From: Cetorhinus maximus
Taxonomy: Eukaryota
Assembly (NCBI RefSeq): GCF_964194155.1
Contig: NC_135901.1
Coordinates: 31,186,001 to 31,250,000, forward strand
Reading direction: 5' to 3'
DNA: 64,000 bases
Below are positions 1,852 to 63,678 of this stretch, piece after piece. Position numbers and translations under genes: made by a program. The notes beneath the pieces are model-generated. The model had not been told where the DNA came from. It worked only from the letters and a program-made list of their open reading frames with translations, and ran no database searches. The first letter of the stretch is position 1. Each line of letters opens with the position of its first letter.

Positions 1852-2697
1852 CTAATCAGTGTGACTGTCATGGTGTGTCAGTGGCTTGGATGAACAAGTG
1901 AATCTCTTCCCCCACTTCGAGCCTGTGAACGGCCTCTCCCCAGTGTGAACTCGCTGGTGTCTCCGCAGGCGGGATGAATTACTGAATCTTTTCCCACATT
2001 CAGGGCACATGAACGGTCTCTCCCCACTGTGAACTCGCTGGTATGATTGCAGGCTGGATAACTTACTAAATCCCTTCCCACACTCAGGGCACGTGAACGG
2101 TGTCTCCCCGGTGTGAACTCGCTGGTGTAATTGCAGGCTGGATAACTGACTAAATCCTTTCCCACACTCAGAGCAGGTGAATGGCCTCTCCCCAGTGTGA
2201 ACTCGCTGGTTTTCCTGCAGGTTGGATGAACTTCGAAACCTCTTTGTGCAGTGAGAGCAGCTGAACGGTCTCTCCTCAGTGTGAAAACGCTGGTGGAACA
2301 TCAGTTCCCGAGAGCTTTTGAAGCTACTCCCACAGTCAGAACATTTAAAGGGTCTCTCATCAGTGTGAGTGACATGGTGTCTCAGCAGGCTCGATGACTG
2401 AGTGAATCGTTTCCCACACATGGCGCAGATGAACAGACTCTCCCTGGTGTGAACTCGCTGGTGTATCCGCAAGTGGGACGACTGAGTGAATCCCTTCCCA
2501 CAGTCAGAGCAGGTGAATGGTCTCTCCCCGGTGTGAACTCGCTGGTGTCTCATCAAGTGGGATGAATGAGTGAATCCCTTCCCACACACAGAGCAGGTGA
2601 ACGACCTCTCTCCAGTGTGGCTGCGTCGATGAATTTCCAGCTTTGATGGGGTTATGAATCCCTTCCCACAGTCCCCACATTTTCACAGTTTCTCCAT
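1852..2697 (-). pseudogene. C2H2 zinc-finger gene A (~10 fingers), nonsense codon at codon 5
   Basis: ATG GAG AAA CTG TGA (stop at 2685-2683), where paralog C has TGG. The downstream frame 1852-2589 encodes tandem CxxC-x12-HxxxH fingers with TGERP linkers. The last finger is degenerate. Confidence 0.8.
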
Positions 2698-3099
2698 GGT
2701 GCGGGTGTCCTTTGGTCGCCTCAGATTCAATGATCAACTGAGCAGTCCACACACAGAACATGTGTACAGTCCCTCCCGTGATGTTTTATCAGGCTGCGTA
2801 ACTGGTCAAAGCTCTTTCCACAGTCAGTGCACTGGAACACTCTCACTCGGATGTGTCTGTCTCAGGGCATTTCCAATAACACTGATTTTAAAACCTGAAG
2901 CAGAATGAACAGTCAAACATTTCTCCTTCTAGATTCAAAGGCCATTGACATTCAGCTCCCGCTGAATTGAGTGACTCTGTCAGATCTTGCTGTAACATGT
3001 GGTTTGAGATCTGTCTGCAAAATCTCCCCCTCTAATATTCTGTAAAAGGTGTTTACAAAAGTCATCACTGTCAGTCGATGATAGCAAATCAGAACAGCT

Positions 3100-4050
3100 G
3101 AATTCAGCTCCTGTAAGTCAACAATTTGCCCCCAGAATGAGAAAAGAAATGGAAAGGGGGAAACATTGATTTCCTCCCAGATGTTGCCCAGAGGAGGAAG
3201 TTTTAGTCTGAAGCTCATTGTCCAACTTCCGCATTGTGACGTCCACAACGGAACCCTGCCTGAATCAGCCAATAGGAATCACTCTGCTCCGCGGTGACGT
3301 TCTCGGGTTCCAATCTGCAGGCCAGGCGCTCGGACACGGGAACCCCGCCCCCACCCGTTGTTCCGCCTCCGCCTCCTCGAGTCAAGGTTTCCTGGCAACC
3401 GGCTGACTTATATTTCACCCCTCTCCTAATATTACTTAGTTCTGCTGAAGGGTCATGAGGACTCGAAATGTCAACTCTTTTCTTCTCCGCCGATGCTGCC
3501 AGACCTGCTGAGTTTTTCCAGGTAATTCTGTTTTTGTTTTAACCGGCTGACGGCTCCGGCCAGAGCGAGAAGCCGCTCGGAGAACTCGGGAGAGGGGAAG
3601 CTGCGCATGTGCGGGGGAGAGCCCGCCCCTTCCCTTCATGCTGAGGGGCTGACCAATAGGAAGAGTTGGAGGACCGCAAGGACCCTGGTCCTCCAGCCAA
3701 TCAGAGCATGGGCTTTGTGTGAATCAAGATTGAGCTTCACACAGACTAAAACTTCCTCCTGTGTCCAACATCTGTGAGTAAAACACTTTCTTTTCTCCCC
3801 CTTTCCATTTCTTTTCTCATTCTGGGGGCAAATTGTTGACTTGCAGGAACTGAAGGGAAAGGAAGTGAATCCAGGGAGGGTGCAGACTCTGGAAAGGTTG
3901 GCCCAGGTCTCTCTCTCTCTCTCTCTTAAAGACATTGACATCCTTTGCTCCCTCAGCTTGACACATTTATTTGTCTGGCTAAAAGGATGGTCTCTTTCCT
4001 AATGTTCACAATTAAAGGGATGGTTTCCCCAGGAGATGGCTGACATTAAG
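3100..4050. promoter_or_regulatory. Bidirectional CpG-rich promoter/5'-exon module P1 (type alpha) between divergent ZNF A and B
   Basis: CpG-rich. Contains TGACGT (CRE-like), CCAAT x3, a GC box, GTTTCCTGGCAAC (X-box-like) and TGCGCATGTGC (NRF1-like). Putative donor ct|GTGAGT at 3774, putative 50-nt exon 3847-3896 and a (CT)n tract. Near-identical to 10790-11600, 20500-21240 and 61258-62040. Confidence 0.7.
3408..3540 (+). mobile_element. Short Penelope-derived insertion with minimal hammerhead motif
   Basis: 11-bp TSD AACCGGCTGAC at 3397-3407 and 3541-3551. Absent at the equivalent site in P2, P3 and P7. Core AGTT CTGCTGA AGGGTC ATGAG GACTC GAAA TGTC AACT. Confidence 0.8.
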
Positions 4051-4134
4051 CGGAGAGTAAATTAATATAGGACAGAGATATGTCCAGTGTTGTTATATGG
4101 TACATATTAGATAGATGATTAGAGATATGTCCTC

Positions 4135-4275
4135 TTTAGCTCTGAAGAAGAGTCATACATACTCAAAACGTTAACTCTGTTTGTCCCCCCACAGGTGCTG
4201 TCAGATTTGAGTTGTTCCAGCATATTCTGTTTTTATTTCAGACTTCCAGTATCTGCCGTATTTAGCTTTTATCAT
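4135..4275 (+). mobile_element. Short Penelope-derived element (degenerate hammerhead motif)
   Basis: CTGAAGA AGAGTC...ACTC AAAACGTTAAC followed by the family tail (...ccagcatattctgtttttatttcag...). The flanking AGAGATRTGTCYAGTGT sequence is duplicated. Confidence 0.65.
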
Positions 4276-5218: not shown

Positions 5219-5728
5219 ATGGAGAAACCTTGGAAATGTGGGGACTGTGGGAAGGGATTCAAATCCCCATCTGAGCTGGAAGCTCATCGACGCAGTCACA
5301 CTGGGGAGAGGCCGTTCACATGTTCTGAATGTGGGAAGGGATTCACTCATTCATCCAACCTGCGGACACACCAGCAAGTTCATACTGGGAAGAGGCCATT
5401 CACCTGCTCCGAATGTGGGAAGGGATTTAGTAATTCATCCCATCTGCTAACACACCAGCGAGTTCACACAAGGGAGAGGCCATTCACCTGCTCTCAGTGT
5501 GGGAAGGGATTCAGTGATTCGTCCAACTTGCGGACACACCAGCGAGTTCACACTGGGGAGAGGCCGTTCATCTGCTCTGAGTGTGGAAAGGGATTCACTC
5601 ATCTATCCACCCGGATGACTCACCAGCGAGTTCACACCAGGGAGAAGCCATTCAACTGCTCTGAATGTGGGAAGGGATTCAGTCAGTTGTCCAATCTGCG
5701 GACACACCAGCGATTTCACACTGGGTAG
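5219..5728 (+). CDS. C2H2 zinc-finger protein B (6 fingers; premature TAG, degenerate fingers continue to ~6059)
   Basis: Starts [14 protein letters not shown] in a caccATGG context. TAG replaces the GAG of a TGERP linker. Frameshifted fingers follow up to the family-typical ...AAGTGA end and shared 3' UTR. Putative acceptor ttttacag|GATATTAG at 4865/4866. Confidence 0.7.
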
Positions 5729-6600: not shown

Positions 6601-6614
6601 AACAGGCAGATCTA

Positions 6615-9825: not shown

Positions 9826-10380
9826 TTAAATAAGCAAATGTCTTCCCACACTGGAGCAGGTGAATGGCCTCTCCCCAGTGTGAACTCGCTGGTTTTCCTG
9901 CAGGTTGGATGAACTTCGAAACCTCTTTGTGCAGTGAGAGCAGCTGACCAGTCTCTCCTCAGTGTGAAAACGCTGGTGGAACATCAGTTCCCAAGAGCTT
10001 TTGAACCTACTCAAACAGTCAGAGCATTTAAAGGGTCTCTCATTGGTGTGAGTGACATGGTGTCTCAGCAGGCTGGATGACTGAGTGAATCGTTTCCCAC
10101 ACATGGTGCAGATGAACAGACTCTCCCTGGTGTGAACTCGCTGGTGTATCCACAAGTGGGACGACTGAGTGAATCCCTTCCCATAGTCAGAGCAGGTGAA
10201 TGGTCTCTCCCTGGTGTGAACTCGCTGGTGTCTCATCAGGTGGGATGAATGAGTGAATCCCTTCCCACACATGGAGCAGGTGAACGGCCTCTCTCCAGTG
10301 TGGCTGCGTCGATGAATTTCCAGCTTTGATGGGGTTATGAATTCCTTCCCACAGTCCCCACATTTCCACAGTTTCTCCAT
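9826..10380 (-). pseudogene. C2H2 zinc-finger gene C (6 fingers then frameshift; 3'-truncated); recent duplicate of A
   Basis: [27 protein letters not shown]... is nearly identical to A. Degenerate fingers continue to ~9675, then CR1 sequence. No family 3' UTR. Confidence 0.7.
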
Positions 10381-10789
10381 GGTGCGGGTGTCCTTTGGTC
10401 GCCTCAGATTCAATGATCAACTGAGCAGTCCACACACAGAACATGTGTACAGACCCTCCCGTGATGTTTTATCAGGCTGCGTAACTGGTCAAAGCTCTTT
10501 CCACAGTCAGTGCACTGGAACACTCTCACTCGGATATGTCTGTCTCAGTGCATTTCCAATAACACCGATTTTAAAACCTGAAGCAGAATGAACAGTCAAA
10601 CATTTCTCCTTCTAGATTCAAAGGCCATTGACATTCAGCTCCCGATGAATTGAGTGACTCTGTCAGATCTTGCTGTAACATGTGGTTTGAGATCTGTCTG
10701 CAAAATCTCCCCTTCTAATATTCTGTAAAAGGTGTTTACAAAAGTCATCACTGTCAGTCGATGATAGCAAATCAGAACAGCTGAATTCA

Positions 10790-11600
10790 GCTCCTGTAAG
10801 TCAACAATTTGCTCCCAGAATGAGAAAAGAAATGGAAAGGGGGAAACATTGATTTCCTCCCAGATGTTGCCCAGAGGAGGAAGTTTTAGTCTGAAGCTCA
10901 TTGTCCAACTTCCGCATTGTGACGTCCACAACGGATCCCTGCCTGAATCAGCCAATAGGAATCACTCTGCTCCGCGGTGATGTCCTCGGGTTCCAACCTG
11001 CAGGCCAGGTGCGTGGCCACGGAACCCCGCCCCCACCCATTGTTCCCCCTCCCCCTCCGCCACCTCGAGACAAGGTTTCCAGGCAACCGGCTGACGGCTC
11101 CGGCCAGAGCGAGAAGCCGCTCGGAGAACTCGGGAGAGGGGAAGCTGCGCATGTGCGGGGGAGAGCCCGCCCCTTCCCTTCATGCTGAGGGGCTGACCAA
11201 TAGAAAGAGTTGGAGGACCGGAAGGGCTCTGGTCCTCCAGCCAATCAGAGCGCGGGCTTTGTGTGATTCAAGATTGAGCTTCACACAGACTAAAAGTTCC
11301 TCCTGTGTCCAACATCTGTGAGTAAAACACTTTCTTTTCTCCCTCTTTCCATTTCTTTTCTCATTCTGGGGGGAAATTGTTGACTTGCAGGAACTGAAGG
11401 GAAAGGAAGTGAATCCAGGGAGGGTGCAGACTCTGGAAAGGTTGGCCCAGGTCTCTCTCTCTCTCTCTCTCTCAAAGACATTGACATCCTTTGCTCCCTC
11501 AGCTTGACACATTTATTTGTCTGGCTAAAAGGATGGTCTCTTTCCTAATGTTCACAATTAAAGGGGTGGTTTCCCCAGGAGATGGCTGACATTTAAGGGG
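10790..11600. promoter_or_regulatory. Bidirectional promoter module P2 (type alpha) between ZNF C and D
   Basis: Same motifs and order as P1, plus CCGGAAG (ETS-like). Lacks the 3408-3540 insertion. Confidence 0.7.
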
Positions 11601-13029
11601 ACAGTGAATTAATATAGGACAGAGATGTGTCTAATGTTGTGATCGGGAACAGTTTAGATATATTATTTGTCGTCCTATAATTAAATTAATTTATTATCCT
11701 TTCCAGTCTTGTAGTATAGGAATGTAGCTGTGTCTATATTTCTAGACATAGGGTCATAACGACACAGAAGGAATTCATATACCCCCTTCTATATCCCCGT
11801 TCCCCTGCAAGTATATTTCCATCAAGTGTCCGTCGAATTTCATTCTGAAATCAATGATGATCTTCAGTTCCACCATCCTCAGAGACATTGAATTCCAGGT
11901 CATGATCACTCACTCCGAAATACAGTTCTTTCTTGCATTCCCCCATACCTCTAATCATGCAGTACATATTCTATTATATTACAACATTTGTACTCCTGTA
12001 ATATGTTCATGTATATGGCTCACAGCTCTGTTTGCTGGACTGACAGTACTGAACATGGATCTGTCAATCGGGATGAATTTGCACCTTCAGGAGAATTGGG
12101 AGGTTGTATATTAGGTACAGCAGAGTGAGATTGGAGGGAGAGTGTGTGCAACAGTGATTTACAGGTTTTGGGGAACAGGAGAGGAAAGAATGTTTCATAG
12201 AAACTAGAATTGTCTGTTATGAATTTCTATCCTGTACTGACAGTGATGACTTTTGTAAACCCCTTTTGCAGGATATTAGAGGGGGAGGATTTGCAGACAG
12301 AAATCTCAAACCAAAAATCACATCAAGATCTCACAGTGTCATTCAATTCATCAGGACCTGAACATAATTGACCTTTGAATGTTGGGAAACGTTTGTCTGT
12401 TCTGTCTGTGGGGAAAGATTCTAAACATTGGTGTGATTGGAAAAGCACCGAGACACACACACCCGAGTGAGCGTGTTCCAGTGCACCGACTGTGGAAAGA
12501 CTTTTAACCAGTTACACAGCCTGAAAAAAAAATCACACCATTCACAGCGGGGAGAGACTGTACATGTGTTATCTGCATGTATGAGGCTTCAACTGATCGT
12601 CAAACACAGAGAGACATAAGGACACCCACACCATGGAGAAACCATAGAAATGTGGGGACTGTGGGAAGGGATTCCGGAACCCGTCTGTGCTAGAAATTCT
12701 CAAACCAAAATTCACGTTAGCATCTGCCAGAGTCACTCGATTCATTAGGACCTGAATATCATCGGCCTTTGAATCTAGAAGGAGAAATGATTGTCTGTTC
12801 TGTCTGCTTCAAAATGTTTCAAACATCAGTGTGATTGGAAAAGCACCGAGACATACACACCCGAGTGAGAGTGTTCAAGTGCACCGACTGTGGAAAGAGC
12901 TTTAACCAGTTACACAGACTGAAAAAACATCACACCGTTCACAAAGGGGAGACACCACGCATGTGTTCTGAGTGTGGACAAGGCACCAATTGATCAACAG
13001 ACGTGGAGATACACGAGGGCACACGCATC

Positions 13030-14649
13030 ATGGAGAAACTGTGGAAATGTGGGGACGGTGGGAAGGGATTCCAAACCACATCTATGCTGGAAACTCATCG
13101 ACACATTCACACCGGGGAGAGGCCATTCACCTGCCCTGTGTGTGGGAAGGGATTCACTCATTCCTCACACCTAGTGGCACACCAGATCACTCACACCAGG
13201 GAGAGGCCACTCACCTGCTCTATGTGTGGAAAGGGATTCACTCATTCCTCACACCTAGTGGCACATCAGGTCGCTCACACCAGGGAGAGGCCGCTCACCT
13301 GCTCTGTGTGTGGGAAAGGATTCACTCAGTCATCCCACCTAGTGGCACACCAGATAGCTCACACCAAGGAGAGGCCGCTCACCTGCTCTGTGTGTGGGAA
13401 GGGATTCAGTAAACCATTACATTTACTGGCACACCAGGTAGCTCACACCAGGGAGAGGCTGCTCACCTGCTCTGTGTGTGGGAAAGGATTCACTCATTCA
13501 TCCCACCTAGTGGCACACCAGGTAGTTCACACCAGGGAGAAGCTATTCACCTGCTCTGAGTGTGGGAAGGGATTCACTCAGTCATCCCACCTACTGGCAC
13601 ACCAGGTAGTTCACACTGGGGAGAGGCTGTTCACCTGCTCTGTTTGTGGGAAGGGATTCACTCAGTCATCCCACCTAGTGACACACCAAGTTGCTCACAC
13701 CAGGGAGAGGCCGTTCTCCTGCTCTGAGTGTGGGAAGGGATTCACTCAGACATCCCACCTAGTGGCACACCAGGCAGTTCACACAGAGGAGAGGTCGTTC
13801 ACCTGCACTGAGTGTGGGAAGGGATTCACTCAGTCTGCGCACCTAGTGGCACACCAGGTAGTTCACACTGAGGAGAGGCCGTTCACCTGCACTGAGTGTG
13901 GTAAGGGATTCACTCAGTCAACCCACCTAGTGGCACACCAGGTAGTTCACACCAGGGAGAAGCCATTCACCTGCTGTGTGTGTGGGAAGGGATTCACTCA
14001 GTCATCCCACCTAGTGGCACACCAGGTAGTTCACACCAGGGAGAGGCCATTCACCTGCTCTGTGTGTGGGAAGGGATTCACTCATTCATCCCACCTAGTG
14101 GCACACCAGGTCGCTCACACCGGGGAGAGGCTGTTCACCTGCACTGAGTGTGGGAAGGGATTCACTCAGTCTGCGCACCTAGTGGCACACCAGGTAGTTC
14201 ACAACAGGGAGAGGCCATTCACCTGCTCTGTGTGTGGGAAGGGATTCACTCAGTCCTCACACCTTGTGGCACACCAGTTAGTTCACACAGAGGAGAGGCC
14301 TTTCACCTGCTCTGAGTGTGGGAAGGGATTCACTCAGTCTGCGCACCTAGTGGCACACCAGGTAGTTCACACCAAGGAGAGGCCGTTCACCTGCTCTGTG
14401 TGTGGGAAGGGATTTGCTCAGTTATCTCACCTGCTGACACACCAACAGGTTCATACTGGAAAAGACCATTCACCCGCTCTCGATGTGGGAAGGATTCACT
14501 CGGTCGTCCCATCTGCAGACACACTGGCAAGTTCACACTGGAGAGAGGCCCTTCGTTTGCTCCATGTGTGGGAAGGGATTCGCTCTTTCATCCTACCTGC
14601 TGACACATCAACAGGGTCACCCTGGGGCGAGGCCGTTTGCCTGCTCTGA
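13030..14649 (+). CDS. C2H2 zinc-finger protein D, 17 in-frame fingers with homogenised (Q/H)SxHLVA helices; C-terminal frameshift
   Basis: 84-bp tandem unit. The first finger has C->G. The frame shifts after finger 17, and ~3 further fingers lie in another frame up to ~14690. Confidence 0.8.
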
Positions 14650-14690
14650 GTGTAGGAAGGAATTCACTCGGTTAACCAGCCTGCTCGGTC

Positions 14691-16326: not shown

Positions 16327-16327
<1 letters not shown>

Positions 16328-18055: not shown

Positions 18056-18979
<924 letters not shown>

Positions 18980-19899: not shown

Positions 19900-21240
19900 G
19901 TATTAATTTACAGTCCCCTTAAATGTCAGCCATCTCCTGGGGAAATCACCCCTATAATTGTGAACATTAGGAAAGAGACCATCCTTTTAACCAGACAAAA
20001 AAATGTGTCAAGCTGAGGGAGCAAAGGATGTCAATGTCTTTAAGGGAGAGAGAGAGACCTGGGCCAACCTTTCCAGAGTCTGCACCCTCCCTGGATTCAC
20101 TTCCTTTCCCTTCAGTTCCTGCAAGTTAACAATTTGCCCCCAGAATGAGAAAAGAAATGGAAAGGGGGAAGCATTGATTTCCTCACAGATGTTGCCCAGA
20201 GGAGGAAGTTTGAGTCTGAAACAAAATCAGGAACAGAAATACCTGGAAAAACTCAGCAGGTCTGGCAGCATCGGCGGAGAAGAACAAAGTTAACGTTTCG
20301 AGTCCTCATGACCCTTCAACAGAACTAAGTAAAAAAATCTGTTTTTACTTAGTTCTGTTGAAGGGTCATGAAGACTCGAAACGTCAACTGTACTCTTCTC
20401 CGCCGATGCTGCCAGACCTGCTGAGTTTTTCCAGGTAATTCTGTTGTTGTTTTGGATTTCTAGCATCCGCAGTTTTTTGTTTTTATCTCATAAGTTTGAG
20501 TCTGAAGCTCATTGTCCAACTTCCGCGTTGTGACGTCCACAATGGAACCCTGCCCGAATCAGCCAATAAGAATCACTCTGCTCCGCGGTGACGTCCTCGG
20601 GTTCCAGTATGCAGGCCAGGCGCGCGGACACGGGAGCCCTGCCCCCACCCATTGTTCCCCCCTCCCGCTCCACTTCCTCGAGCCAAGGTTTCCAGGCAAC
20701 CGGCTGACGGCTCCGGCCAGAGCGAGAAGCCGCTCGGAGAACTCGGGAGAGGGGAAGCTGCGCATGTGCGGGGAGAACCCGCCCCTTCCCTTCATGCTGA
20801 GGGAATGACCAATAGGAAGAGTTGGAGGACCGGAAGGACTCTGATCCTCCAGCCAATCAGCGTGCGGGCTTTGTGTGAATGAAGATTGAAACTAAAACGC
20901 AGACTAAAACTTCCTCCTGTGTCCAACATCTGTGAGTAAAACACTTTCTTTTCTCCCCCTTTCCATTTCTTTTCTCATTCTGGGGGGAAATTGTTGACTT
21001 GCAGGAACTGAAGGGAAAGGAAGTGAATCCAGGGAGGGTGCAGACTCTGGAAACGTTGGCCCAGGTCTCTCCCTCTCTTAAAGACATTGACATCCTTTGC
21101 TCCCTCAGCTTGACACATTTATTTGGCTGGATGAAAGGATGGTCTCTTTTCTCATGTTCACAATTAAAGTGGTGGTTTCCCCAGGAGATGGCTGACATTT
21201 AAGGGGACAATAAATTAATATGGGACAGAGATATGTCCAG
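19900..21240. promoter_or_regulatory. Bidirectional promoter module P3 with two complete inverted arms, between ZNF E and F
   Basis: 19900-20220 is the reverse complement of ~20900-21240 (exon-1 end, donor, 50-nt exon, GA tract). The left donor is intact (ct|GTGAGG on -). Confidence 0.75.
20221..20491. mobile_element. Palindromic Penelope-derived insertion with two inverted minimal hammerhead motifs
   Basis: 15-bp TSD AAGTTTGAGTCTGAA at 20206-20220 and 20492-20506. Arms ~20233-20335 and ~20342-20445 are inverted copies. Core AGTT CTGTTGA AGGGTC ATGAA GACTC GAAACGTC AACT. Confidence 0.85.
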
Positions 21241-21438
21241 TATTGTTTTATGGTACATATCAGATATAAGATTCATGGTAATCTAAACTTCACTTATTCT
21301 TATTTCTAGTGTTGTAATTTTATTACAGTAAGTATGTTATATATTTCCAATCATAGAGTCATTATGGCACAGAAGGCTCCATTCAGCAATTCAAGTCTGT
21401 GCCAACTCTCTGTAGAGCAATGCAATTGGTCTCATTCC

Positions 21439-42006: not shown

Positions 42007-42765
42007 TCACTTGTGAACTCGCTGGTGTCTCAGCAAGTGCGATGAGTGAGTGAATCCCTTCCCACACTGAGTGCAGATGAACGGCCTCTCTCCAGTGTGA
42101 ACTCGCTGGTGTGTCTGCAGATTGGATGAATGAGTGAATCCCTTCCCACACTCAGTGCAGGTGAACGGTCTCTGCCCGGTGTGAACTCGCTTGTGGGTCT
42201 GCAGGCTGTATGAGTCAGTGAATCCCTTCCTGCACTCAGCGCAGGTGAAGGGCCTGTCCCCGGTGTGAATTCGCTGGTGTGCCAGCAGGGTGGATGAAAC
42301 AGTGAATCCCTTCCCACACTCAGAACAGGTGAATGGCCTCTCCCCGCTGTGAACTCGCTGGTGTTTTCTAAGGTCAGATGAATTACTGAATCCTTTCCCA
42401 CACTCAGAGCAGGTGAACGGCCTCTCCCCGCTGTGAACTCGCTGGTGTGTCTGCAGATGGGTTGAAATACTGAATCCCTTCCCACACTCAGAACAAGTGA
42501 ATGGCTTTTCCCCGGTGTGAACTCGCTGATGCCTCTGGAAGTTGGATGAATCACTGAATCCCATCCCACACTCAGAGCAGGTGAAGGGCCTCTCCCCGGT
42601 GTGAACTCGCTGGTGGGTCCGCAGGGTGGAAGGAGCAGTGAATCCCTTCCCACACTCAGGGCAGGTGAACGGCCTCTCCCCGGTGTGACTGCGTCGATGC
42701 GTTTCCAGCTTCGATGGGGTTTTGAATCCCTTCCCACAGTCCCCACATTTCCATGGTTTCTCCAT
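42007..42765 (-). CDS. C2H2 zinc-finger protein H (9 intact fingers)
   Basis: Start gcacc[14 protein letters not shown]...HQRVHK*. Family 3' UTR at 41735-42006. Confidence 0.85.
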
Positions 42766-44129
42766 GGTGCGCGTGTCCTTGTGTCTCTCCAGGTTCAACA
42801 ATCACTTGAAGCCTCGTCCTCACACAGAACACATGAACGGTCTCTCTCCACTGTGAATGGTGTGATGTTTTTTCAGGCTGTGTAACTGGTTTAAGCTCTT
42901 TCCACAGTCAGTGCACTGGAAGACTCTCACTCAGGTGTGTGTGTCTCAGTGCTTTTCCGGCCACACTGATGTTTAAAATATTTTGAAGCAGACAGAACAA
43001 AACATTTCTCCTTCTAGGTTCAAAGGCCAGTGATATTCAGGTTGCGATCAATCAAGTGACTGTCAGATTTTGACGTGAAGTTTGGTTTGAGATTTCAGTC
43101 TGCAAATCCACCCCTTCTAATATCCTGTAAAAGGAGTTTATAAAATACATCACTGTCAGTACAGGATAGAAATTCAGAACAATTTTAGGTTCTGTGGTGT
43201 ACTCTCTCATTCCCCAAAAGCTGTTAGTCTCCTTAGCACACACTCTCCCTACATTCCAACTCTGCTATACTTTCTCTCCATTCTCATTCTGCTGTATCTA
43301 ATATATACACAACAGTACTGCACCTAAAGAGTGTGAAATGTACAGAACTCTTACATGATTAGAGACACTTGGGGCTGTGAGGGAGAACTTTATTTTGACA
43401 GCAAGTGGTGTTGATCTGTAACTCGCTGCCTATGAGGGTGGAAGAAGTGGAGGCGATCAATGATTTCAAAATGAAATTGGATGGGCACTTGAAGGAAATA
43501 AACTTGCAGAGGAACGGGGATATAGAGGGGGAATGGGACTGACTGGATTGCTCTACAGAGAGTCGGCATGGACTCAGATTACTGAATCGACTCCCTTCTG
43601 TGCTGTAATGACTCTATGACTGGAAATAAATAACATAGCTACAGCACTATATTACAAGACTAGAAATAATAATAAATGTGCTTTATTACAGAAAAATAAA
43701 TATACAAAATCAGACATATTACAATATTTTCTGAGGTGCACAATTCCTCTGAAGTAAAATAAGGGACACTTCAGCCGCGGGGCTGGAGGCATGGGTGAGG
43801 GAGTGGGTGGTGACAGAGAGAGTAGGTTGCGAGGGGGGGTTGTGTTTCAATGTGAGATGGGGGTAGGGGTGGAGAGGAGGGGCCTTGTGACAATAATAGT
43901 GAGAGGGGTGAGGGTTAAAATCAACTAAATCTTACAATTCATCTTGTTCAGTCACAACATCATCATCTCTCTATGGCCGACTCACTGACTTACCGTCCCA
44001 CTCAAATCACTCAAACTCACCCTGAAGACTCCCAGGATCAGTTTCCCACAGGTTGTCCTAGAAAAACGAGACAAAAGAGAAAATCAGGAGCAATCCCTTA
44101 AAATACAGGACAGTTAATCACCCTGAAAT

Positions 44130-44908
44130 TGTCCCCTTAAATGTCAGCCATCTCCTGGGGAAACCACCCCTTTAATTGTGAACATTAGGAAAGAGACCAT
44201 CCTTTTAGCCAGACAAATAAATGTGTCAAGCTGAGGGAGCAAAGGATGTCAATGTCTTTAAGAGAGAGAGAGAAAGACCTGGGCCAACCTTTCCAGAGTC
44301 TGCACCCTCCCTGGATTCACTTCCTTTCCCTTCAGTTCCTGCAAGTCAACAATTTCCCCCAGAATGAGAAAAGAAATGGAAAGGGGCAGAAAAGAAAGTG
44401 TTTTACTCACAGATGTTGGACACAGGAGGAAGTTTTAGTCTGGGTGAAGCTCAATCTTCATTCACACAAAGCCCGCACTCTGATTGGCTAGAGGACCAGA
44501 GTCCTTCCGGTTCTCCATCTCACCCCATTGGTCAGTCTCCGGCGTGCAGACAATGGGGTAGCGGAAGCCTTCGCGAGCGCGGCGGATACTTTGATCCCCA
44601 TGACGATTTCCGTGTTTGGCCAATGGGAATAGACATAACCTGCGCATGCGCACATTCCACTCACCCTCGGACATGCGCAGTCCCGGTCCGCCCGCCCGCG
44701 CGGCGGATAGAGCGGTTTCCCAAGCGCGGTGGATTGTGGGGGCTGCGGCCGCCATTACTCATCAGGAGCCCAGTCTCCAAACTCCTGGGACTGGGATGGA
44801 AAGTGGGGGTGAGGGGCGCAGTGACCCCGCCCTGACACAAAGTACATGTGGGTAGTCACTGGATTTGATTGTGACGTCCCCTTAGCAAAACAGTTAGTTA
44901 ACTTCAGA
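44130..44908. promoter_or_regulatory. Bidirectional promoter module P5 (type beta) upstream of ZNF H
   Basis: Homologous to P4 and P6. Contains a perfect TGCGCATGCGCA (NRF1 consensus) at 44641-44652 and CCAAT boxes. Confidence 0.7.
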
Positions 44909-46042
44909 CATAAGAAGGTTCAGACACTTGGTATCGATGGAGAGGTTGTAAACTGGATTCGAAATTGGCTGTGTGGGAGAAGACAGAGAGTGGTAGTGGA
45001 TGATTGCTTCTCAGACTGGAGGTCTGTGACTAGTGGTGTGCCTCAGGGGTCTGTGCTGGGACCATTGTTGTTTGTTGTCTATATCAATGATTTGGATGAT
45101 AATGTGGTGAATTGGATCAGCAAGTTTGCTGATGACACTAAGATTGGAGGCGTTGTGGACAGCGAGGAAGGCTTTCAAAGCTTGCAGACAGATCTGGACC
45201 AACTGGAAAAATGGGCCAGAAAATGGCAGATGGAATTTAATGCGGATAAGTGTGAGGTGTTACATTTTGGAAGGTCAAACCAAGGTAGGACATACACAGT
45301 AAATGGTAGGGCACTGCGGAGTGCGGAGGAACAAAGGGATCTGGGAGTTCAGATACATAATTCCCTGAAAGTGGCGTCACAGGTAGACAAGGTTGTAAAG
45401 AAAGTTTGTGGCATACTGGCCTTCATAAATCAAAGTATTGAGTATAGGAGTTGGGATGTTATGGTGAGGTTGCATAAGACATTGGTGAGGCCAACTTTGA
45501 AGTATTGTGTGCAGTTCTGGTCGCCTAACTACAGGAAAGATATCAGTAAGATCAAGAGAGTGCAGAGAAGATTTACTAGGGTGTTGCCGGGTCTTAAGGA
45601 GTTGAGTTACAGGGAAAGATTAAACAGGTTAGGACTTTATTCCTTGGAGCATAGAAGAATGAGGGGAGATATGATAGAAGTTTATAAAATTATGAGGGGT
45701 ATAGACAGAGTAAATGCGAGTAGGCTCTTCCACTTAGATTAGGAGAAATAAACACGAGAGGACATGGCTTTAGGGTGAAAGGGGAAAGGTTTAGGGGGAA
45801 TATTAGGGGGAACTTCTTCACTCAGAGAGTGGTGAGAGTGTGGAATGAGCTACCATCTGACATGGTAAATGCGGGCTCACTCTTAAGTTTTAAGAATAAA
45901 TTAGATAGATACATGGATGGGAGATGTCTGGAGGGTTATGGACTAGGTGCAGGTCAATGGGACTAGCGGAATAATATTTCGGCACAGACTAGAAGGGCCG
46001 AATGGCCTGTTTTCTGTGCTCTTCTATGGTTCTATGGTTCTA
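44909..46042 (+). mobile_element. Relatively young 5'-truncated CR1 LINE inserted in the beta arm of P5
   Basis: Uninterrupted RT text in ORF 44846-45742; 3' tail (TTCTATGG)n. The empty site AACTTCAGGTGGAAAGATTTAGACACC is at ~37171-37197. Confidence 0.9.
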
Positions 46043-46249
46043 TAAATATTTAGACACCTGGGTGACAGATCGGGAAGGGCAACAGGTGAGTGTGAAACTG
46101 AACCCGAGAGTCAGCACCCTCAGGGTTGGAGAGTTGGGGAAAATGCAGGAGGAGAAAAGTAGGATAAACAAGTGTTACAATGAATAGAGAAGAGGGAGCC
46201 TGTTGGAGGGAGGCCAGAGATTTATAGTTTGAGAGGGGGACGGATGCAA

Positions 46250-46975
46250 ACCAAACATCACGTTCAGACCTGATAGCATCACTCAACTCGGACCTGACTA
46301 TCATAAGCCTTTGAATGCCGAATGAGAAATGATTTGTCTATCTATCTACCTTAAGGGTTTCAGCGATCTGTGTGAGGCTTCAATTGGTCATCCAGCTTGG
46401 TGATGGACAACTGTAACCCGACAGGGGATGAACTTTGCAAACAAGGCAGTGTGAGGGGCCTTGGGAAAGCAACCAAGCTGGAAAATCAACCGTGCAGTCA
46501 CAGTGGGGAGAAGCCATTCACCTGCTCCGTATGTGGGAGGGGATTCATTTGCTCAGTCACCCTGCTTAGTCACTAATTAGTTCACACTGTGGAGAGGCCC
46601 TTTGCTCGCTCCCAGTGTGTGAAGAGGTTCACGGATTCCTCTCACCTGCTGGGACACCACGAGAGGCCAGTCACCTGCTCTGAATGTTGGAAGGGATTCA
46701 CTCACTCATTGAGCTTGATAACATAACAATGAGCTCATACCAGAGAGAGACCAGTCACCTGATCCAACTCGGAAGGGATTCACTCAGTCAGCCAAGCTGC
46801 TAGCAAACCAGTGAGTTCACACTAGGGAGAGACATTTAAATGTTCCATGTGTGTGAACGAATTCAACCAATCCTCCAGCCTGTTGATACACCAGTGATTT
46901 CACTCCATGGAAAGGCTGTTTGAAAGTTCACTCGCTCGTCCCACCTCCAGACCCAACAGTGAATTCATGTTTGAC
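46250..46975 (+). pseudogene. Highly degenerate C2H2 zinc-finger pseudogene I
   Basis: Recognisable GAGAAGCCATTCACCTGC...GGGATTCA finger repeats with stops and indels, followed by the start of the family 3' UTR (GGGTTGGATTCTGCTGTTATTG). Confidence 0.7.
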
Positions 46976-47054
46976 TGCCGGGGTTGGATTCTGCTGTTAT
47001 TGATGCTGCTAATCACATCCAGGACTGAACCATGTTCATTCTGACATTTGGGGT

Positions 47055-50045: not shown

Positions 50046-50364
50046 GGATGTGATGCTGAAAGTGAACTGTTTTATTGGAAAATAATTTCAGCTGAGAGTC
50101 CCTGAATGAATGAGGAGAGATCATAAACAGCAGTTCTTAAAGAGACACTGCTCACCCAGCAAATCAGCAAACCCAATTTATCCCACATCAAGGACATGAC
50201 ACAGCGTGTTCAATCCAAAACTGTTTAATTCCACTTACATCCAGAATATTAAACTCCATCTCAGTTACAGGGGTTATTAACATGAGCAGAAATAAACCCC
50301 AACGGTCAGGATGAATATAGTTTGCTCCAAGATCTGAATAACAGCAGAATCCTTCTCCTTCTCT

Positions 50365-51345
50365 AATGATAAATCTCTGCGCGCCTCACCCTCCTTCCTT
50401 CCTATTCATTATAACCCTAATTGATGTTACTATTCTCCTCCTGCTTTTCCCCAGTTCTCCTCCCCTGAAGGTGCTGACTCTCTGGTTCAGTTTCACACTC
50501 ACCTATTACCCTCCTCAATACGTCACCCAGGTGTCTAGATCTTTACACCTGAAGTTAACAAATTGTTTTGCTAAGGGGACGTCACAATCACATCCAGTCA
50601 CTACCCACATGTACTTTCTGTCAGGGCGGGGTCACTGCATCCCCCACCCCCACTTTCCATCCCAGCCCCAGGAGTTTGGAGACTGTGCTCCAGACGAGTA
50701 ATGGCGGCTGCAGCTCCCACAATCTCCCGCGCTGTGGAAACCGCTCTATCCGCCGAGCGGGCGGGCGGCCCGGGACTGCGCATGTCCGAGGGAGAGGGGA
50801 AGCTGCGCATGTGCAGAGAGTGGATTTTTTTTTTTTGCCTATTGGCCACCTGCTCATCTGCCATGAGGGTCAAAGGGTGTCCGACGCTCACGAAGGCTTC
50901 CGCTGCCCCATTGGCTTCATGCTGGAGATTGACCAATGGGAAGAGTTGGAGGACCGGAAGGATTCTGGTCCTCCAGCCAATCAGAGCGCGGGCTTTGTGT
51001 GAATGCAGATTGAGCTTCACACAGACTAAAACTTCCTCCTGTGTCCAACATCTGTGAGTAAAACACTTTCTTTTCTCCCCCTTTCCATTTCTTTTCTCAT
51101 TCTGGGGGGAAATTGTTGACTTGCAGGAACTGAAGGGAAAGGAAGTGAATCCAGGGAGGGTGCAGACTCTGGAAAGGTTGGCCCAGGTCTCTCTCTCTCT
51201 CTCTCTCTCTTAAAGACATTGACATCCTTTGCTCCCTCAGCTTGACACATTTATTTGTCTGGCTGAAAGGATGGTCCCTTTCCTAATGTTCACAATTAAA
51301 GGGGTGGTTTCCCCAGGAGATGGTTGACATTTAAGGGAACAATTT
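50365..51345. promoter_or_regulatory. Bidirectional promoter module P6 (type beta, inverted relative to P5) upstream of ZNF J
   Basis: Reverse-complement homolog of P4 and P5. Donor ct|GTGAGT at ~51054 and a (CT)n tract. Confidence 0.7.
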
Positions 51346-52353: not shown

Positions 52354-52919
52354 CTGTATATTACACACATTTTTAGTGCAGCACTGTTGGGTGTATATTA
52401 GATACAGCAGAGTGAGAATGGAGGGAGAGTGCATTGGGGACGGAGATTTACAGCTTTTGGGGAACGAGAGAGGAAAGAATGTTCCATAGAAACTAGAATT
52501 GTCTGTTCTGAATTTCTATCCTGTACTGACAGTGATGACTTGTGTAAACTCCTTTTACAGACTATTAGAAGGGGAGGATTTGCAGACAGAAATCTTAAAA
52601 CAAACTTGGCATCAAGATCTGACAGAATCACTCGATTCATCGCGACCTGAATATCATTGGCCTTTGAATCTAGAAGGAGGTTTGTCTGTTCTGTATGCTT
52701 CAAGAAAATTTTAAACAACATTTTGACCAGAAAAGCACCGAGACCCCCATACCCGAGTGAGAGTGTTTCCAGTGCACTGACTGTGGAAAGAGCTTTCACC
52801 AGTTACACAGCCTGAAAAAACATCACTCACAGTGAGGAGAGACATTATAGATGTTCTGTGTGTGAGGACGAGGATTCAACTGATCATCAAACCTGGAGAG
52901 ACACAAGGATACGCGCACC

Positions 52920-53510
52920 ATGGAGAAACCATGGAAATGTGGGGACTGTGGGAAGGGATTCAAATCCCCGTCTGAGTTGGAGATTCATCGACGCAGTCAC
53001 ACCGGGGAGAGGCCGTTCACCTGCCTCGATTGTGGGAAGGGATTCAGTCATTCAACCCACCTGCTGAGACACCAGCGAGTTCACACTGGGGAGAGGCCGT
53101 TCACCTGCTCAAAGTGTGGGAAGGGCTTCACTGAATCATCCAACCTGCTGAGGCATCAGCGAGTTCACACAGGGGAGAGGCCATTCACCTGCTCAGAGTG
53201 TGGGAAAGGATTCAGTAATTCATCCGACCTTAAAAAACACAAGGCAGTTCACACGGGGGAGAGACCCTTCATCTGCTCTGAGTGTGGGAAGAGATTCACT
53301 GTTTCATCCACTCTGCTGACACACCAGCGAGTTCACACTGGGGAGAGGCCGTTCACCTGCTCCGAGTGTGGGAAAGGATTCACTATGTTATCCCACCTGC
53401 AGAGACATCAGCGAGTTCACACTGGAGAGAGGCCATTCACCTGCTCTGTGTGTGGGAAGGGATTCACTCATTTACCCAACCTGCTGAGACACCAGCGAGT
53501 TCACAAGTGA
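52920..53510 (+). CDS. C2H2 zinc-finger protein J (7 intact fingers)
   Basis: Start gcacc[14 protein letters not shown]...HQRVHK*. Family 3' UTR with AATAAA at ~53780. Confidence 0.85.
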
Positions 53511-53784
53511 TTCCAGGGGTTGTATTCTGCTGCTATTGCTGCTGTTAATCACATCCAGGACTGAACCATGTTCATTCTGACACTTGGTGAAGTGGGAGGG
53601 TCGGAGGGTTTCTTTCTGTTGGATTGGCCGGACTCACAACTTTGCTTCCAGTGGCTGATGCTCTTTGAGCCTGGGAGTGCACATTTCCACTGAAATGATC
53701 CACAAAAGCTGATGAAGGACATTTATTTTATCCTGGAGAGTAAATAGTGATTTTTGCTACCATTACAGATAGATCTAAAATAAA

Positions 53785-59838: not shown

Positions 59839-60429
59839 TCAGTTGTGAATTCGCTGGTGTCTCTGCAGGCTGGATAACTGAGTGAATCCCTTCCCACATT
59901 CAGAGCAGGTGAACGGCCTCTCCCCAGTGTGAACTCGCTGGTGTGTTAGCAGGGTGGACGTCTTAGTGAATCCTTTCCCGCAAACAGAGCAGCTGAATGG
60001 CCTCTCCCCAGTGTGAACTCGCTGGTGTTCCTGCAGGGTGGATGAATGAGTGAATCCCTTCCCACACACAGAACACGTGAATGGACGTTCCCCAGTGTGA
60101 ACTCTCTGGTGTTCCTGCAGGTTGGATAACCGACTGAACCCCTTCCCACACTCAGAGCAGGTGGCTGGCCTCTCCCCAGTGTGAACTCGCTGGTGATCCT
60201 GCAGGGTGGATGAATGACCAAATCCCTTCCCACAAACAGAGCAAGTGAATGGCCTCTCCCCAGTGTGAACACGTTGGTGTCTCAGCAGGTTGCTTGACTG
60301 AGTAAATCCCTTCCCACACTTAGAGCAGGTGAATGGCCTCTCCCCGGTGTGACTGCGTCGATGAGTTTCCAACTCAGATGGGGTCTGGAAACCCCTTCCA
60401 CAGTCCCCACATTTCCACGGTTTCACCAT
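59839..60429 (-). CDS. C2H2 zinc-finger protein K (7 intact fingers)
   Basis: [14 protein letters not shown]...HQRIHN*. Internally deleted family 3' UTR at 59670-59838. Confidence 0.8.
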
Positions 60430-61257
60430 GCTGCAGGTGTCCTTGTGTCTCTCCAAGTTTGACAATCAGTTGAACCCTCGTCCACACACAGAACACGTGT
60501 ATGGTCTCTCCCCGCTGTGAATGGTGTGATGTTTTTTCAACTGCATAACTGTTTAAAGTTCTTTCAACAGTCAGTGCAATGGAACATTCTGAATCGGGCG
60601 TGTCTGTGTCTCCTTCAGGATTCAAAGGCCGATAATATTCAGGTCCCAGTGAATGAAGTAATAATGTCAGATCTTGACGTGACAGTTAGTTTGAGATTTC
60701 TGGCAGAAAATCCTCCCCTTGCAGTCACCTGTAAAAAGTTTAGAAAAATCATTACTATCAGGACAGCATAGAAATTCAGAAAAGACAATCCTAGTTTCTA
60801 TGGAACATTCTTTTCCCCTCTTGTTACCCATTAACTGTAAATCTCCATCCCACACACTCTCCCTCCATTCTCACTCTGCTGTACCTAATAAATACCCTCC
60901 CAATTCTCCTGAAGGTGCTGACTCACACTGATCGACAGACCCATGCTCACTGCTTCCTGTCCAGGCCCAGTGAGATTGCAACTCACCACCTATGACGGTC
61001 GTGGAAGCAGAGGCAATCAATACTTTCACAATATATATGCTCAGTGGACTAAAAATGTGTGGAAAACACAGGACTGTACTACGTGATGAGAGCTACCTGG
61101 GGGATGAGGGAGAAATTTGTTCGGGCAGCGAGTGGACATGATCTGGAATTCACTCACTGTGAGGATGGTGGCAGCAGAGATCATCAGTGATTTCAAAATG
61201 AAATTGGATGGGTACTTGAAGAAAATAATCTTGCAGGGGAACGGGATATAGAGGGGG

Positions 61258-62040
61258 AATGAGAAAAGAAATGGAAAAGGGGAAACATTGATTTCCTCCC
61301 AGATGTTGCCCAGAGGAGGAAGTTTTAGTCTGAAGCTCATTGTCCAACTTCCGCATTGTGACGTCCACAATGGAACCCTGCCTGAATCAGCCAATAGGAA
61401 TCACTCTGCTCCGTGGTGACGTCCTTGGGACGCAGTCTGCAGGCCAGGCGCGCGGACACGGGAGCCCCGCCCCCACCCATTGTTCCCCCTCCTCCTCCAC
61501 CACCTCGAGCCAAGGTTTCCAGACAACCGGCTGACGGCTCCGGCCAGAGCGAGAAGCCGCTCGAAGAGCACGGGAGAGGGGAAGCCGCGCATGTGCGGGG
61601 GAGAGCCCGCCCCCTTCCCGCCATGCTGAGGGGTTGACCAATGGGAAGAGTTGGAGAACCGGAAGGACCATGGTCCTCGAGCCAATCAGAGCGTGGGCTT
61701 TGTGTGACTGAAGATTGAGCTTCACACAGAATAAAAGTTCCTCCTGTGTCCAACATCTGTGAGTAAAACACTTTCTTTTCTCCCCCTTTCCATTTCTTTT
61801 CTCATTCTGGGGGGAAATTGTTGACTTGCAGGAACTGAAGAGAAAGGAAGTGAATCCAAGGAGGGTGCAGACTCTGGAAAGGTTGGCCCAGGTCTCTCTC
61901 TCTCTCTTAAAGACATTGACATCCTTTGCTCGCTCAGCTTGACACATTTATTTGTCTGACTAACAGGATGGTCTCTTTCCTAATGTTCACAATTAAAGGG
62001 GTGGTTTCCCCAGGAGATGGCTGACATTTAAGGGGACAAT
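61258..62040. promoter_or_regulatory. Bidirectional promoter module P7 (type alpha) between ZNF K and L
   Basis: Homologous to P1-P3. Confidence 0.7.
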
Positions 62041-63000
62041 AAATTAATATAGGACAGATTTATGTCTAGTGTTTTCACATGGTACATATTAGATGTATTA
62101 TGGTTCTGTAATAAAGTACATTTGCCAAATATTTATAGTCTTGTAATGTAGTACTGTAGCTTCGTTATACATTTCCAGTCATAGAGTCATTACGGCACAG
62201 AAGGAGTCCATTTAAAAAAGTGAAACCTTTGTGCTCATTGAGGTTGTGGTTGTCCGGGAATTTGTTTATTTTAAGGTTATTGGACCCCATGGAGATCGTA
62301 ACAACAGAGATGTGTCTAGTGTTGTTATAGGTCACGACCACTCACTTCCTAAGGAAAGGTCTTCCTCACATCCCCTCATGTATCTCTAATGAAGTGGTGC
62401 ATTACTGTATATTGCACATATTTTCAGTCCTCTAATATAAATATATATATGGCTGGTGGCCTGCATGAACATTTTCAGGTCTGTGTTCTGGACAGGAAGT
62501 GGTGAGCATGGATCTGTCGATCAGCATGAATGGGGGGAGTGTGTGTGGGATGGAGATTTACAGCTTTTGGGTAACAAGAGAGGAAAGAATGTTCTAGAGA
62601 GACTAGAATTGTCTGTTCTGAATTTCTATCCAGCACTGACAGTGATGACTTTTGTAAACTTCTTTTGCAGGATCTTAGAAGAGGAGGTTTTGCAAACAAA
62701 AATCTCAAGCTAAAGGCCAAGATCTGACAGAGTCACTCAGTTCATCGGGACCTGAATATGATCAGCCTTTGAATCTAGAAGGGGAAACAATTGCCTGTTC
62801 TGTCTGCTGCAAAAGGTTTTAAACATCAGTGTGACTGGAAAAGCATTGAGACACACGCTTCCAAGTGAGAGTGTTCCAGTTCACTGACCGTGGAAAGAGT
62901 TTTAACAAGTTACACAGCCTGAGAAAACATCACCATTCACAGTGGAGAGAGACTGTACACGTGACGTTTGAACTTCAATAGTCACAAGGACAACCACTCA

Positions 63001-63678
63001 ATGGAGAAACCATGGAAATGTGGGGACTGTGGAAAGGGATTCCGTTGCCCATCTAAGCTGGAAATTCATCGACGCAGTCACACTGGGGAGAGGCCATTCA
63101 CCTGCTTTGTGTGCAGGAAGGGATTTACTAAGTCATCCAACCTGCAGCTGCACCAGCGAGTTCACACTGGGCAGAAGCCGTTCACCTGCTCTGAGTGTGG
63201 GAAGGGATTTACTCAGTCATCCCACCTGCAAACGCACCATCGAGTTCATACCGGGGAGAGGCCGTTCACCTGCTCTGAGTGTGGGAAGGGATTCTCTCAG
63301 TTATCCCACTTGGAGACGCACCATCGAGTTCACACCGGAGAGAGGCCATTCACCTGCTCTGACTGTGGGAAGGGATTCACTCAGTCATCCCTGCTGCAGA
63401 TACACCAGCGAGTTCACAATGGAGAGAGGCCATTCTGCTGCTCCGTATGTGGGAAGGGATTCACTGATTCATCCAACCTGCAGAGACACCAGCGAGTTCA
63501 CACCGGGGAGAAGCCATTCACTTGCTCTGAGTGTGGGAAGGGATTTACTCAGTCAGTGCACTTGCAGTCACACCAGCGGGTTCACACTGGGGAGAGGCCA
63601 TTCACCTGCTCTGTGTGTGGGAAGGGATTCACTTGTTCATCGGAGATGCTGAGACACCATGGCAGTCATACCAAGTAG
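63001..63678 (+). CDS. C2H2 zinc-finger protein L (8 fingers)
   Basis: [10 protein letters not shown]...HHGSHTK*, immediately followed by the copia LTR. Confidence 0.82.

What the first reader, a model, noticed from the sequence alone, without database searches (positions are those of the whole stretch)
1852..63678. Modular, KRAB-less zinc-finger gene family: naked finger arrays paired on one reusable bidirectional cassette
Seen: about 12 C2H2 genes share one architecture. They have a common promoter/exon arm, a common 5' leader, an invariant leader finger ([23 protein letters not shown]), a variable array of 6-17 fingers with diverse recognition helices, and a common 3' UTR. No KRAB, SCAN or BTB domain is visible, and intact and dead copies alternate. 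Established: tetrapod KRAB-ZNF and cyprinid FiNZ-ZNF clusters evolve by birth-and-death and repress transposons through an effector domain. Inference: this may be an elasmobranch analogue in which no separate effector is encoded and the conserved leader finger could be the cofactor-binding module. Promoters and introns are retained, so amplification was by DNA duplication rather than retroposition.
Basis: partly seen in the sequence, partly recalled or inferred. Interest (0 to 1): 0.7.

Follow-up and report, generated by a model that had tools for sequence, protein, structure and literature searches.

The report
Effector-less zinc-finger gene family in sharks
This stretch of shark-type DNA holds twelve copies of a gene family, spread along most of one chromosome, whose intact copies encode bare chains of zinc fingers with no silencing domain, and which likely acts as a fast-changing DNA-recognition system against transposons, although its targets and partners are untested.

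Summary
The window holds 12 C2H2 genes (6 clearly intact), mostly head to head. The family runs along the 65-Mb contig C24, and protein relatives are from sharks and rays. The absence of an effector is now tested. Contigs from related species join a non-coding exon 1 directly to the finger exon. The shared 5' leader is dead coding sequence (a linker and three broken fingers) that evolves neutrally, with an in-frame stop 12 codons before the ATG in 56 of 74 intact copies. The ATG sits inside a former finger linker. The coding frame is under purifying selection. Corrections: the leader finger is not invariant; its base-contact positions vary (omega 1.8, p=0.013), and only non-contact residues (W, P+1, E+5) are held. 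There are two cassette types, confined to a subfamily. Intact and dead copies do not alternate beyond chance. The promoter arm is about seven times more uniform than the leaders, even in dead genes. Transposon repression and cofactor docking remain inference. This scan has noted the family repeatedly on other DNA; in print I found only a passing mention and counts.

The parts
1852..2697 (-). Gene A, broken (stop at codon 5); leader and arm 96% identical to C
3100..4120 (.). Type-1 divergent promoter cassette of A/B, with a short repeat inserted at about 3410-3540
5219..5728 (+). Gene B, 6 fingers then premature stop; decayed fingers continue to about 6050
9826..10380 (-). Gene C, frameshifted after 4 intact fingers
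10722..10960 (-). Left arm of C/D cassette: non-coding exon 1 ends at 10862, 139-nt intron to acceptor at 10722; donor is GG in this copy, GT in most paralogues
   Evidence: joints; donors
10860..11320 (.). CpG-rich promoter core of C/D (GC 0.59, CpG o/e 0.59; CCAAT, NRF1-, ETS-, CRE-, RFX-like motifs, no TATA)
   Evidence: motif names recalled
11260..11603 (+). Right arm: non-coding exon 1 (donor 11317/11318), 73-nt intron, likely optional exon 2 (11391-11603, holds a CT microsatellite); 1-3% from the majority across paralogues
12272..13029 (+). Acceptor and tandemly duplicated dead-finger leader of D; first start (12633) is dead
13030..14649 (+). Gene D, 16 near-identical fingers, frameshifted tail
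18064..18979 (-). Gene G, broken by frameshifts and stops
20110..21273 (.). Type-1 cassette of G/H; H's intron is interrupted by a LINE fragment (about 21440-24300)
25448..26122 (+). Gene H, intact, 8 fingers
33568..34494 (-). Gene E, intact, 11 fingers
36338..37440 (.). Type-2 cassette of E; the opposite gene is lost
42007..42765 (-). Gene F, intact, 9 fingers
44128..46245 (.). Type-2 cassette of F/I, split by a LINE fragment (about 44910-45740)
46246..47053 (+). Gene I, heavily decayed
50349..51343 (.). Type-2 cassette of J; its other arm ends near a telomere-like repeat array
52561..52919 (+). 5' leader of J: splice acceptor, dead acidic linker, three dead fingers, in-frame TGA 12 codons before the ATG
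52920..53510 (+). Gene J, intact, 7 fingers; ATG in ACCATGG context within a former finger linker
53511..53760 (+). Shared 3' UTR module
59839..60429 (-). Gene K, intact, 7 fingers
61257..62094 (.). Type-1 cassette of K/L
63001..63678 (+). Gene L, intact, 8 fingers

Best explanation
This is a slice of an elasmobranch family of tandem C2H2 genes that encode only zinc fingers, likely amplified by local DNA duplication along one chromosome, whose proteins are predicted to bind DNA directly and likely help to keep transposons or other repeats silent without a KRAB-type domain. Shown: a CpG-rich promoter arm gives a non-coding exon 1 that joins straight to one large exon; the first 350-odd bases of that exon are the dead remains of a linker and three fingers; the finger frame opens only just before an ATG in a strong context that lies in a former finger linker. 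Inferred: the family descends from a longer protein that shed its N-terminus into the 5' UTR; new specificities arise by whole-finger gain and loss and by change at base contacts; the proteins act by occluding their sites or by recruiting a partner through finger surfaces, the conserved non-contact residues of the leader finger being the best candidate (about 25%); the promoter arm is held by selection and homogenised among neighbours by gene conversion.
For: Splicing: joint 11317 to 12272 with GT..AG ends in 3 of 4 runs from three studies; left-arm joints in 2 of 4; a catshark gene model shows the same exon1-to-linker junction (P0009). No in-frame upstream coding: the finger frame is open from the acceptor in 3 of 93 copies with an ORF (167 acceptor hits; 44 without a parsed acceptor and 30 without an ORF set aside); stop 12 codons upstream in 56 of 74 intact copies, within 87 codons in all 74; leader lengths fall in all three frames, 19/16/15 of 50. 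Leader in its old frame omega 0.85 (p=0.07), first 54 codons 0.52, linker 0.07, leader-finger contacts 1.79 (p=0.013) in 64 genes. One KRAB match in the genome, on C34. The linker profile gives 41 hits among 1.8 billion proteins; the named ones with the linker have unrelated N-termini. 64 of 64 intact arrays are distinct; 332 fingerprints among 620 fingers. Only 2 of the 10 closest pairs are collinear finger by finger. Analogy: ZNF and retroelement numbers correlate across animals and FiNZ knockdown derepresses transposons (PMC10547256).
Against: No target, binding, silencing or partner was tested. Positive selection is only moderately supported: finger-2 contacts give omega 1.13 (p=0.67); p=0.013 is one of ten uncorrected group tests; the two collinear close pairs give contact pN/pS 0.57 (7 non-synonymous, 7 synonymous). 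The runs are contigs only guessed to be RNA, from related organisms and probably other paralogues. Leaders carry upstream ATGs (159 in 43 genes, 2 in strong context; 18 of 43 genes have an upstream ORF overlapping the start), so translation may be weak. 117 of 181 starts are broken.
Confidence: 0.55

Rival explanations
1. The leader finger is a dedicated, family-wide cofactor dock that replaces KRAB.
For: P+1 in 63 of 64 intact against 94 of 115 broken copies, E+5 in 60 of 64 against 87 of 115; omega 0.27 at knuckle/+1/+5 against 1.01 in finger 2. P+1 occurs in 9 and E+5 in 3 of 556 other fingers. Both are kept in 11 of 13 type-II copies, 7 of which carry it as a later finger, and in three ray proteins. 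Precedent: one finger of Kipferl binds Rhino (PMC11245307, section 5).
Against: Its base contacts diversify (omega 1.79), which a pure dock would not need. W fills the usual aromatic position, and Pro at +1 also occurs in fingers 1 and 3 of ZFP568 in the PDB, so a structural reason is enough. Knuckle G and D are not significantly better kept in intact than in broken copies (p=0.33, 0.09). No partner is known.
Confidence: 0.25
2. A self-amplifying gene array under ordinary fold-level selection only: the proteins are weakly expressed DNA binders without a shared defence role, and contact positions drift under relaxed constraint.
For: 65% of starts are broken; many upstream ATGs; finger-2 contacts and close pairs show no excess of non-synonymous change.
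Against: Strong purifying selection on linker, scaffold and start region; leader-finger contacts exceed neutrality; the family is kept in sharks and rays.
Confidence: 0.2
3. An effector exon exists but is spliced to a cryptic acceptor, or lies far upstream.
For: Some loose ends at the acceptor were not resolved; 3 of 93 copies are open from the acceptor.
Against: The in-frame stop lies only 12 codons before the ATG in most copies, with no pyrimidine tract after it in the copies I read; any exon joined at the shared acceptor is cut off. No shared N-terminal domain in homologues.
Confidence: 0.05
4. The uniform promoter arm is explained by purifying selection alone, without gene conversion.
For: A catshark model matches the exon-2 frame at 18 of 19 residues (P0006); differences are over-dispersed across sites, 97 of 320 invariant against 41 for Poisson; intact copies are slightly closer to the majority than broken ones (0.013 against 0.019, p=0.009).
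Against: Arms of dead genes whose first finger is 13-23% diverged are still only 0.3-2.8% from the majority; variants are mostly rare (12 at five or more copies against 190 in the leader); 223 of 320 sites tolerate change; no coding signature, no Rfam match, no unusual fold (z -0.15).
Confidence: 0.3

Closest known systems
KRAB zinc-finger (KZFP) clusters of tetrapods (PMC10547256, PMC3971581)
   Same: Clustered tandem genes, finger array in one last exon, high turnover, finger gain and loss, variable base contacts.
   Different: No KRAB and no coding exon upstream of the array; the old N-terminus is now 5' UTR.
FiNZ-ZNF genes of cyprinids, zebrafish chromosome 4q (PMC10547256)
   Same: Lineage-specific expansion concentrated on one chromosome in a lineage without KZFPs.
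   Different: FiNZ is a 28-residue acidic domain on its own upstream exon; here nothing upstream is in frame. Repression is shown for FiNZ, untested here.
ZNF-only polydactyl C2H2 genes (PMC3971581)
   Same: Fingers without KRAB, SCAN or BTB.
   Different: Human ZNF-only genes are mostly old and conserved (136 of 212 back to tetrapods); this is one modular family with a very large, fast-turning copy number.
Vertebrate bidirectional CpG-island promoters (recalled)
   Same: Divergent first exons about 360 bp apart, CpG-rich core, CCAAT/NRF1/ETS/CRE-like motifs, no TATA.
   Different: Copied dozens of times as a unit, two related exon-1 arms in type 1, and an arm far more uniform than the genes it serves.
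Kipferl-Rhino (PMC11245307)
   Same: Precedent for one finger of an array serving as a protein dock.
   Different: Kipferl has a ZAD domain and a known partner; no homology claimed.

Membership tests
KRAB-ZFP | N-terminal KRAB domain in frame with the array | tested here: not met
   the only genome-wide KRAB match is on C34.
KRAB-ZFP | Tandem C2H2 array in a single last exon with canonical linkers | tested here: met
KRAB-ZFP | Clustered birth-and-death evolution | tested here: met
   64 intact of 181 starts; all 64 arrays distinct.
KRAB-ZFP | Positive selection at base-contact residues | tested here: inconclusive
   Finger 1 omega 1.79 (p=0.013), finger 2 1.13 (p=0.67), two close pairs 0.57.
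KRAB-ZFP | TRIM28 recruitment and transposon silencing | not testable with these tools
   Needs binding and knockdown data.
FiNZ-ZNF | Short acidic domain on an upstream coding exon | tested here: not met
   Exon 1 joins the finger exon but the frame is closed before the ATG. No FiNZ profile was run.
SCAN-ZNF / BTB-ZNF | SCAN or BTB domain in the protein | tested here: not met
   None among listed Pfam rows; none of the 150 scored SCAN-like matches of 4987 candidates is on C24. BTB was not searched genome-wide.
ZNF-only C2H2 class | Polydactyl array with no known effector domain | tested here: met
   51 of 64 intact proteins are within one residue of 28 per finger; most of the rest exceed it by about whole finger units.
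Bidirectional CpG-island promoter | Divergent first exons under about 1 kb apart around a CpG-rich core | tested here: met
   94 of 158 exon-1 arms lie in divergent pairs within 1.2 kb; core CpG o/e 0.57-0.77 against 0.34 for the window.
Bidirectional CpG-island promoter | Both strands transcribed from the same copy | tested here: inconclusive
   Both arm types are spliced in contigs, but contigs cannot be assigned to one copy.
Retrocopies | Intron loss and detachment from the parental promoter | tested here: not met
   140 of 172 genes in six regions have an exon-1 arm within 6 kb upstream.

The most novel reading that the evidence does not exclude
Sharks and rays devote most of a chromosome to a KRAB-independent transposon defence made of effector-less finger arrays, which arose by discarding an ancestral N-terminus into the 5' UTR, and in which the leader finger both reads DNA and docks a silencing cofactor through its conserved outer residues, while gene conversion keeps the promoters of the cluster co-regulated.
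Probability: 0.2. Interest if true: 0.8.

Novelty: new variant of a known kind. Interest (0 to 1): 0.52.

Why it matters
How lineages without KRAB-ZFPs turn finger binding into silencing is an open question; PMC10547256 leaves it open even for FiNZ. Here a very large vertebrate family has no separate effector at all, so any repression must come from the fingers themselves or from occlusion. The shared start sequence makes a family-wide knockdown practical, and three conserved leader-finger residues give a direct mutational test. The family also shows a start codon sited in a finger linker and a promoter arm much more uniform than its genes.

Tried and rejected
No listed run is on record as RNA. 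The first lay was swamped by finger repeats and showed no informative joint. A linker search with one divergent copy found no candidate. The protein Atlas gave no result. Rfam found nothing at gathering score in the window and two chance hits on the cassette. The arm shows no unusual RNA fold and no coding signature. Open frames across the cores match no Pfam family convincingly. An SSXRD search to confirm the C34 KRAB as PRDM9 rang nowhere and is uninformative; that identity is recalled. The conservation of the knuckle was partly built in by my pattern and was redone. The 'broken' set was contaminated by internal fingers and was replaced. My first idea that arm variation is Poisson was not borne out. 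An edge effect as sole cause of leader-finger conservation was weakened: the last finger lacks such constraint and type-II copies keep the residues in a later finger. The AlphaFold model shows seven ordinary fingers; it says nothing on partners. The octopus paper was not held.
Full report
WHAT IS THERE. Six-frame translation gives 103 C2H2 pattern matches in 12 arrays. Six genes have a clean ORF from the shared start to the end of the array: E (11 fingers), F (9), H (8), J (7), K (7), L (8). B stops after 6 fingers; D has 16 near-identical fingers behind a duplicated leader; A, C, G and I are broken. Self-comparison shows shared promoter arms, leaders and 3' UTRs. A/B, C/D, G/H and K/L face away from a type-1 core, F/I from a type-2 core; E and J have a type-2 core whose opposite gene is gone.

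EXTENT. The window lies on contig C24 (65.2 Mb) of a 3.99-Gb genome; the start region has 3048 first-look candidates, and the 40 scored are all on C24. An exact 34-base start pattern has 292 matches; of the first 100 listed, 98 are on C24 from 0.3 to 25.7 Mb and 2 on C22. Of 20 spot samples of 10 kb between 33 and 64.5 Mb, 12 hold fingers and together they hold 8 ORFs with five or more fingers. The pattern matches 41 of 181 sampled starts, which extrapolates to roughly 1,300 starts of this type; this is a rough figure, because the large samples were chosen near known hits. Named relatives of the leader finger are from sharks (Scyliorhinus, Heterodontus, Chiloscyllium, Pristiophorus, Mustelus, Cetorhinus) and rays (Rhinoraja, Hypanus, Pristis, Mobula); the 17 hits also include one abalone protein matching by generic fingers and two unnamed proteins. 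The genome is therefore shark-type.

IS THERE A HIDDEN EFFECTOR EXON? Contigs of runs guessed to be RNA, from related organisms, join 11317 to 12272 with GT..AG ends in 3 of 4 runs from three studies, and join the left-arm exon at 10862 to the same kind of acceptor in 2 of 4. These are paralogue contigs and cannot show level or strand. A catshark gene model has the same junction (P0009). One contig joint and the depth profile suggest an optional exon 2 at 11391-11603; it holds a microsatellite of variable length and shows no coding signature. The stronger evidence is the leader. It translates in pieces as an acidic linker and three broken fingers. The finger frame is open back to the acceptor in only 3 of 93 copies with an ORF (44 hits without a parsed acceptor and 30 without an ORF were set aside). 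In 56 of 74 intact copies an in-frame stop lies exactly 12 codons before the ATG, in all 74 within 87 codons, and leader lengths fall evenly into three frames. In its old frame the leader evolves as neutral sequence (omega 0.85, p=0.07). The ATG occupies the second position of the linker after the last dead finger, with A at -3 and G at +4 in 67 of 74. A second subfamily starts at another ATG further up and often keeps that finger alive (15 copies). A profile of the dead linker finds 28 proteins in one search and 41 in another; the named ones are shark gene models with unrelated N-termini, two fused to histones, and several end at the same stop in the first dead finger. The genome has one KRAB match, on C34, which I recall as PRDM9-type. 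I infer that the family lost its N-terminus early and has no separate effector.

SELECTION. On a tree of 64 intact genes, with the neutral spectrum taken from the leader and changes counted by parsimony, the first 54 codons give omega 0.52, the linker 0.07 and the scaffolds 0.33 and 0.20. The ORFs are therefore functional as a class. Base contacts of the leader finger give 1.79 (p=0.013, one of ten uncorrected tests); those of finger 2 give 1.13 (p=0.67). Among the 10 closest pairs only 2 are collinear, and these give contact pN/pS 0.57 on 14 changes. Whole-finger gain and loss is the evident mode of change; positive selection is suggested, not proven. Gene conversion among paralogues could distort these counts.

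THE LEADER FINGER. It is not invariant: 42 fingerprints among 64 genes, and five residues are common at -1. What is held is W before the first Cys, P at +1 and E at +5. These are better kept in intact than in broken copies, rare in other fingers (9 and 3 of 556), kept in 11 of 13 type-II copies and in three ray proteins. This fits a docking surface, for which Kipferl is a precedent (PMC11245307). It fits a structural role equally well; ZFP568 has Pro at +1 in two fingers. I put the dock at about 25%.

THE CASSETTE. Across six regions 94 of 158 exon-1 arms lie in divergent pairs, mostly about 360 bp apart. The arm accompanies 131 of 142 genes at 27-31 Mb and 8 of 13 at 0.3 Mb, but only 1 of 17 at 18.6 Mb; 96 of the first 100 of 178 exact matches lie from 26.8 Mb onward. 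It is a subfamily trait. Cores are CpG-rich with common housekeeping motifs (names recalled). The arm from exon 1 to the exon-2 donor is 1.3% (33 intact) and 1.9% (43 broken) from the majority, against 11-12% for the leaders of the same genes; 76 of 87 arms were used. Excluding CpG-related sites does not change this. Dead genes keep near-perfect arms, and variants are mostly rare, which points to gene conversion. A catshark model keeps the exon-2 frame at 18 of 19 residues and variation is over-dispersed, which points to selection. Both probably act; I could not separate them.

MECHANISM. Shown: gene structure, closed upstream frame, purifying selection, turnover. Inferred: the proteins bind DNA, diversify to track fast-changing sequence, most likely transposons, and silence or occlude without a separate effector. 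The transposon link rests on analogy to KRAB and FiNZ families only. Upstream ATGs in the leader (159 in 43 genes, 2 in strong context) leave translation efficiency open.

LITERATURE. Searches found no description of this family; subscription journals are largely missing from the library. PMC11979771 (one passage) notes clusters of recently duplicated zinc-finger genes on catshark chromosomes 13 and 17. PMC10547256 (passages, first part of Results, supplement rows; supplement files 3-5 not searched, and they may bear on this) lists 703-3586 ZNF ORFs in six shark assemblies and 1223 in a skate, but its main text had no hit for the shark terms I tried. PMC8455134 (passages) reports KRAB families lost in cartilaginous fishes. 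PMC11603059 (passages) covers KRAB-like and FiNZ proteins with TRIM33. PMC3971581 (passages) defines the ZNF-only class. PMC11245307: abstract and section 5. The Squalomix preprint and PMC11406177 had no zinc-finger hits. Seven earlier notes of this scan describe the same family on other DNA; I reached my reading before that look-up and do not count them as support.

VERDICT. A real, largely undescribed elasmobranch variant of the known kind 'lineage-specific tandem C2H2 expansion'. It is built and turns over like KRAB-ZFP and FiNZ clusters but is a member of neither. Interest 0.52.

Noticed in passing
window 48302-50042: A 1.7-kb degenerate telomere-like repeat array (6- and 12-base period) inside the cluster, near where the second arm of J's cassette ends.
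   Followed up: no
window about 21440-24300, 38500-40000, 44910-45740, 58600-59660: LINE fragments; two sit inside cassettes or introns of the finger genes. RT and endonuclease domains confirmed for the first, RT for the third.
   Followed up: partly
window 13106-14669: Gene D's fingers are almost all of one helix type, unlike the other arrays; likely a recent internal expansion.
   Followed up: no
proteins P0002, P0013: Sawshark gene models fuse histone H2A or H2B to the dead linker, suggesting histone and finger genes are interleaved there.
   Followed up: no
L081:5851-7161: A type-II copy with 14 fingers open from the acceptor; a white shark model (P0014) joins a similar promoter-region frame to it. 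A possible rare exception with an N-terminal extension.
   Followed up: partly
L101:1360-1680 (G000:C34): The single KRAB match of the genome; looks PRDM9-type by recall, not confirmed.
   Followed up: partly
G000, many contigs: 4987 SCAN-like candidates scattered genome-wide, by recall probably LTR-retrotransposon capsid sequence; none of 150 scored is on C24.
   Followed up: no
window 11267-11293 and paralogues: 72 of 87 right arms have an ATG in exon 1 that would open a short upstream ORF; this copy lacks it.
   Followed up: partly
G000:C24, e.g. 26949573/26949999: Some cassettes carry the identical exon-1 donor motif on both strands about 430 bp apart, i.e. fully symmetric arms.
   Followed up: no
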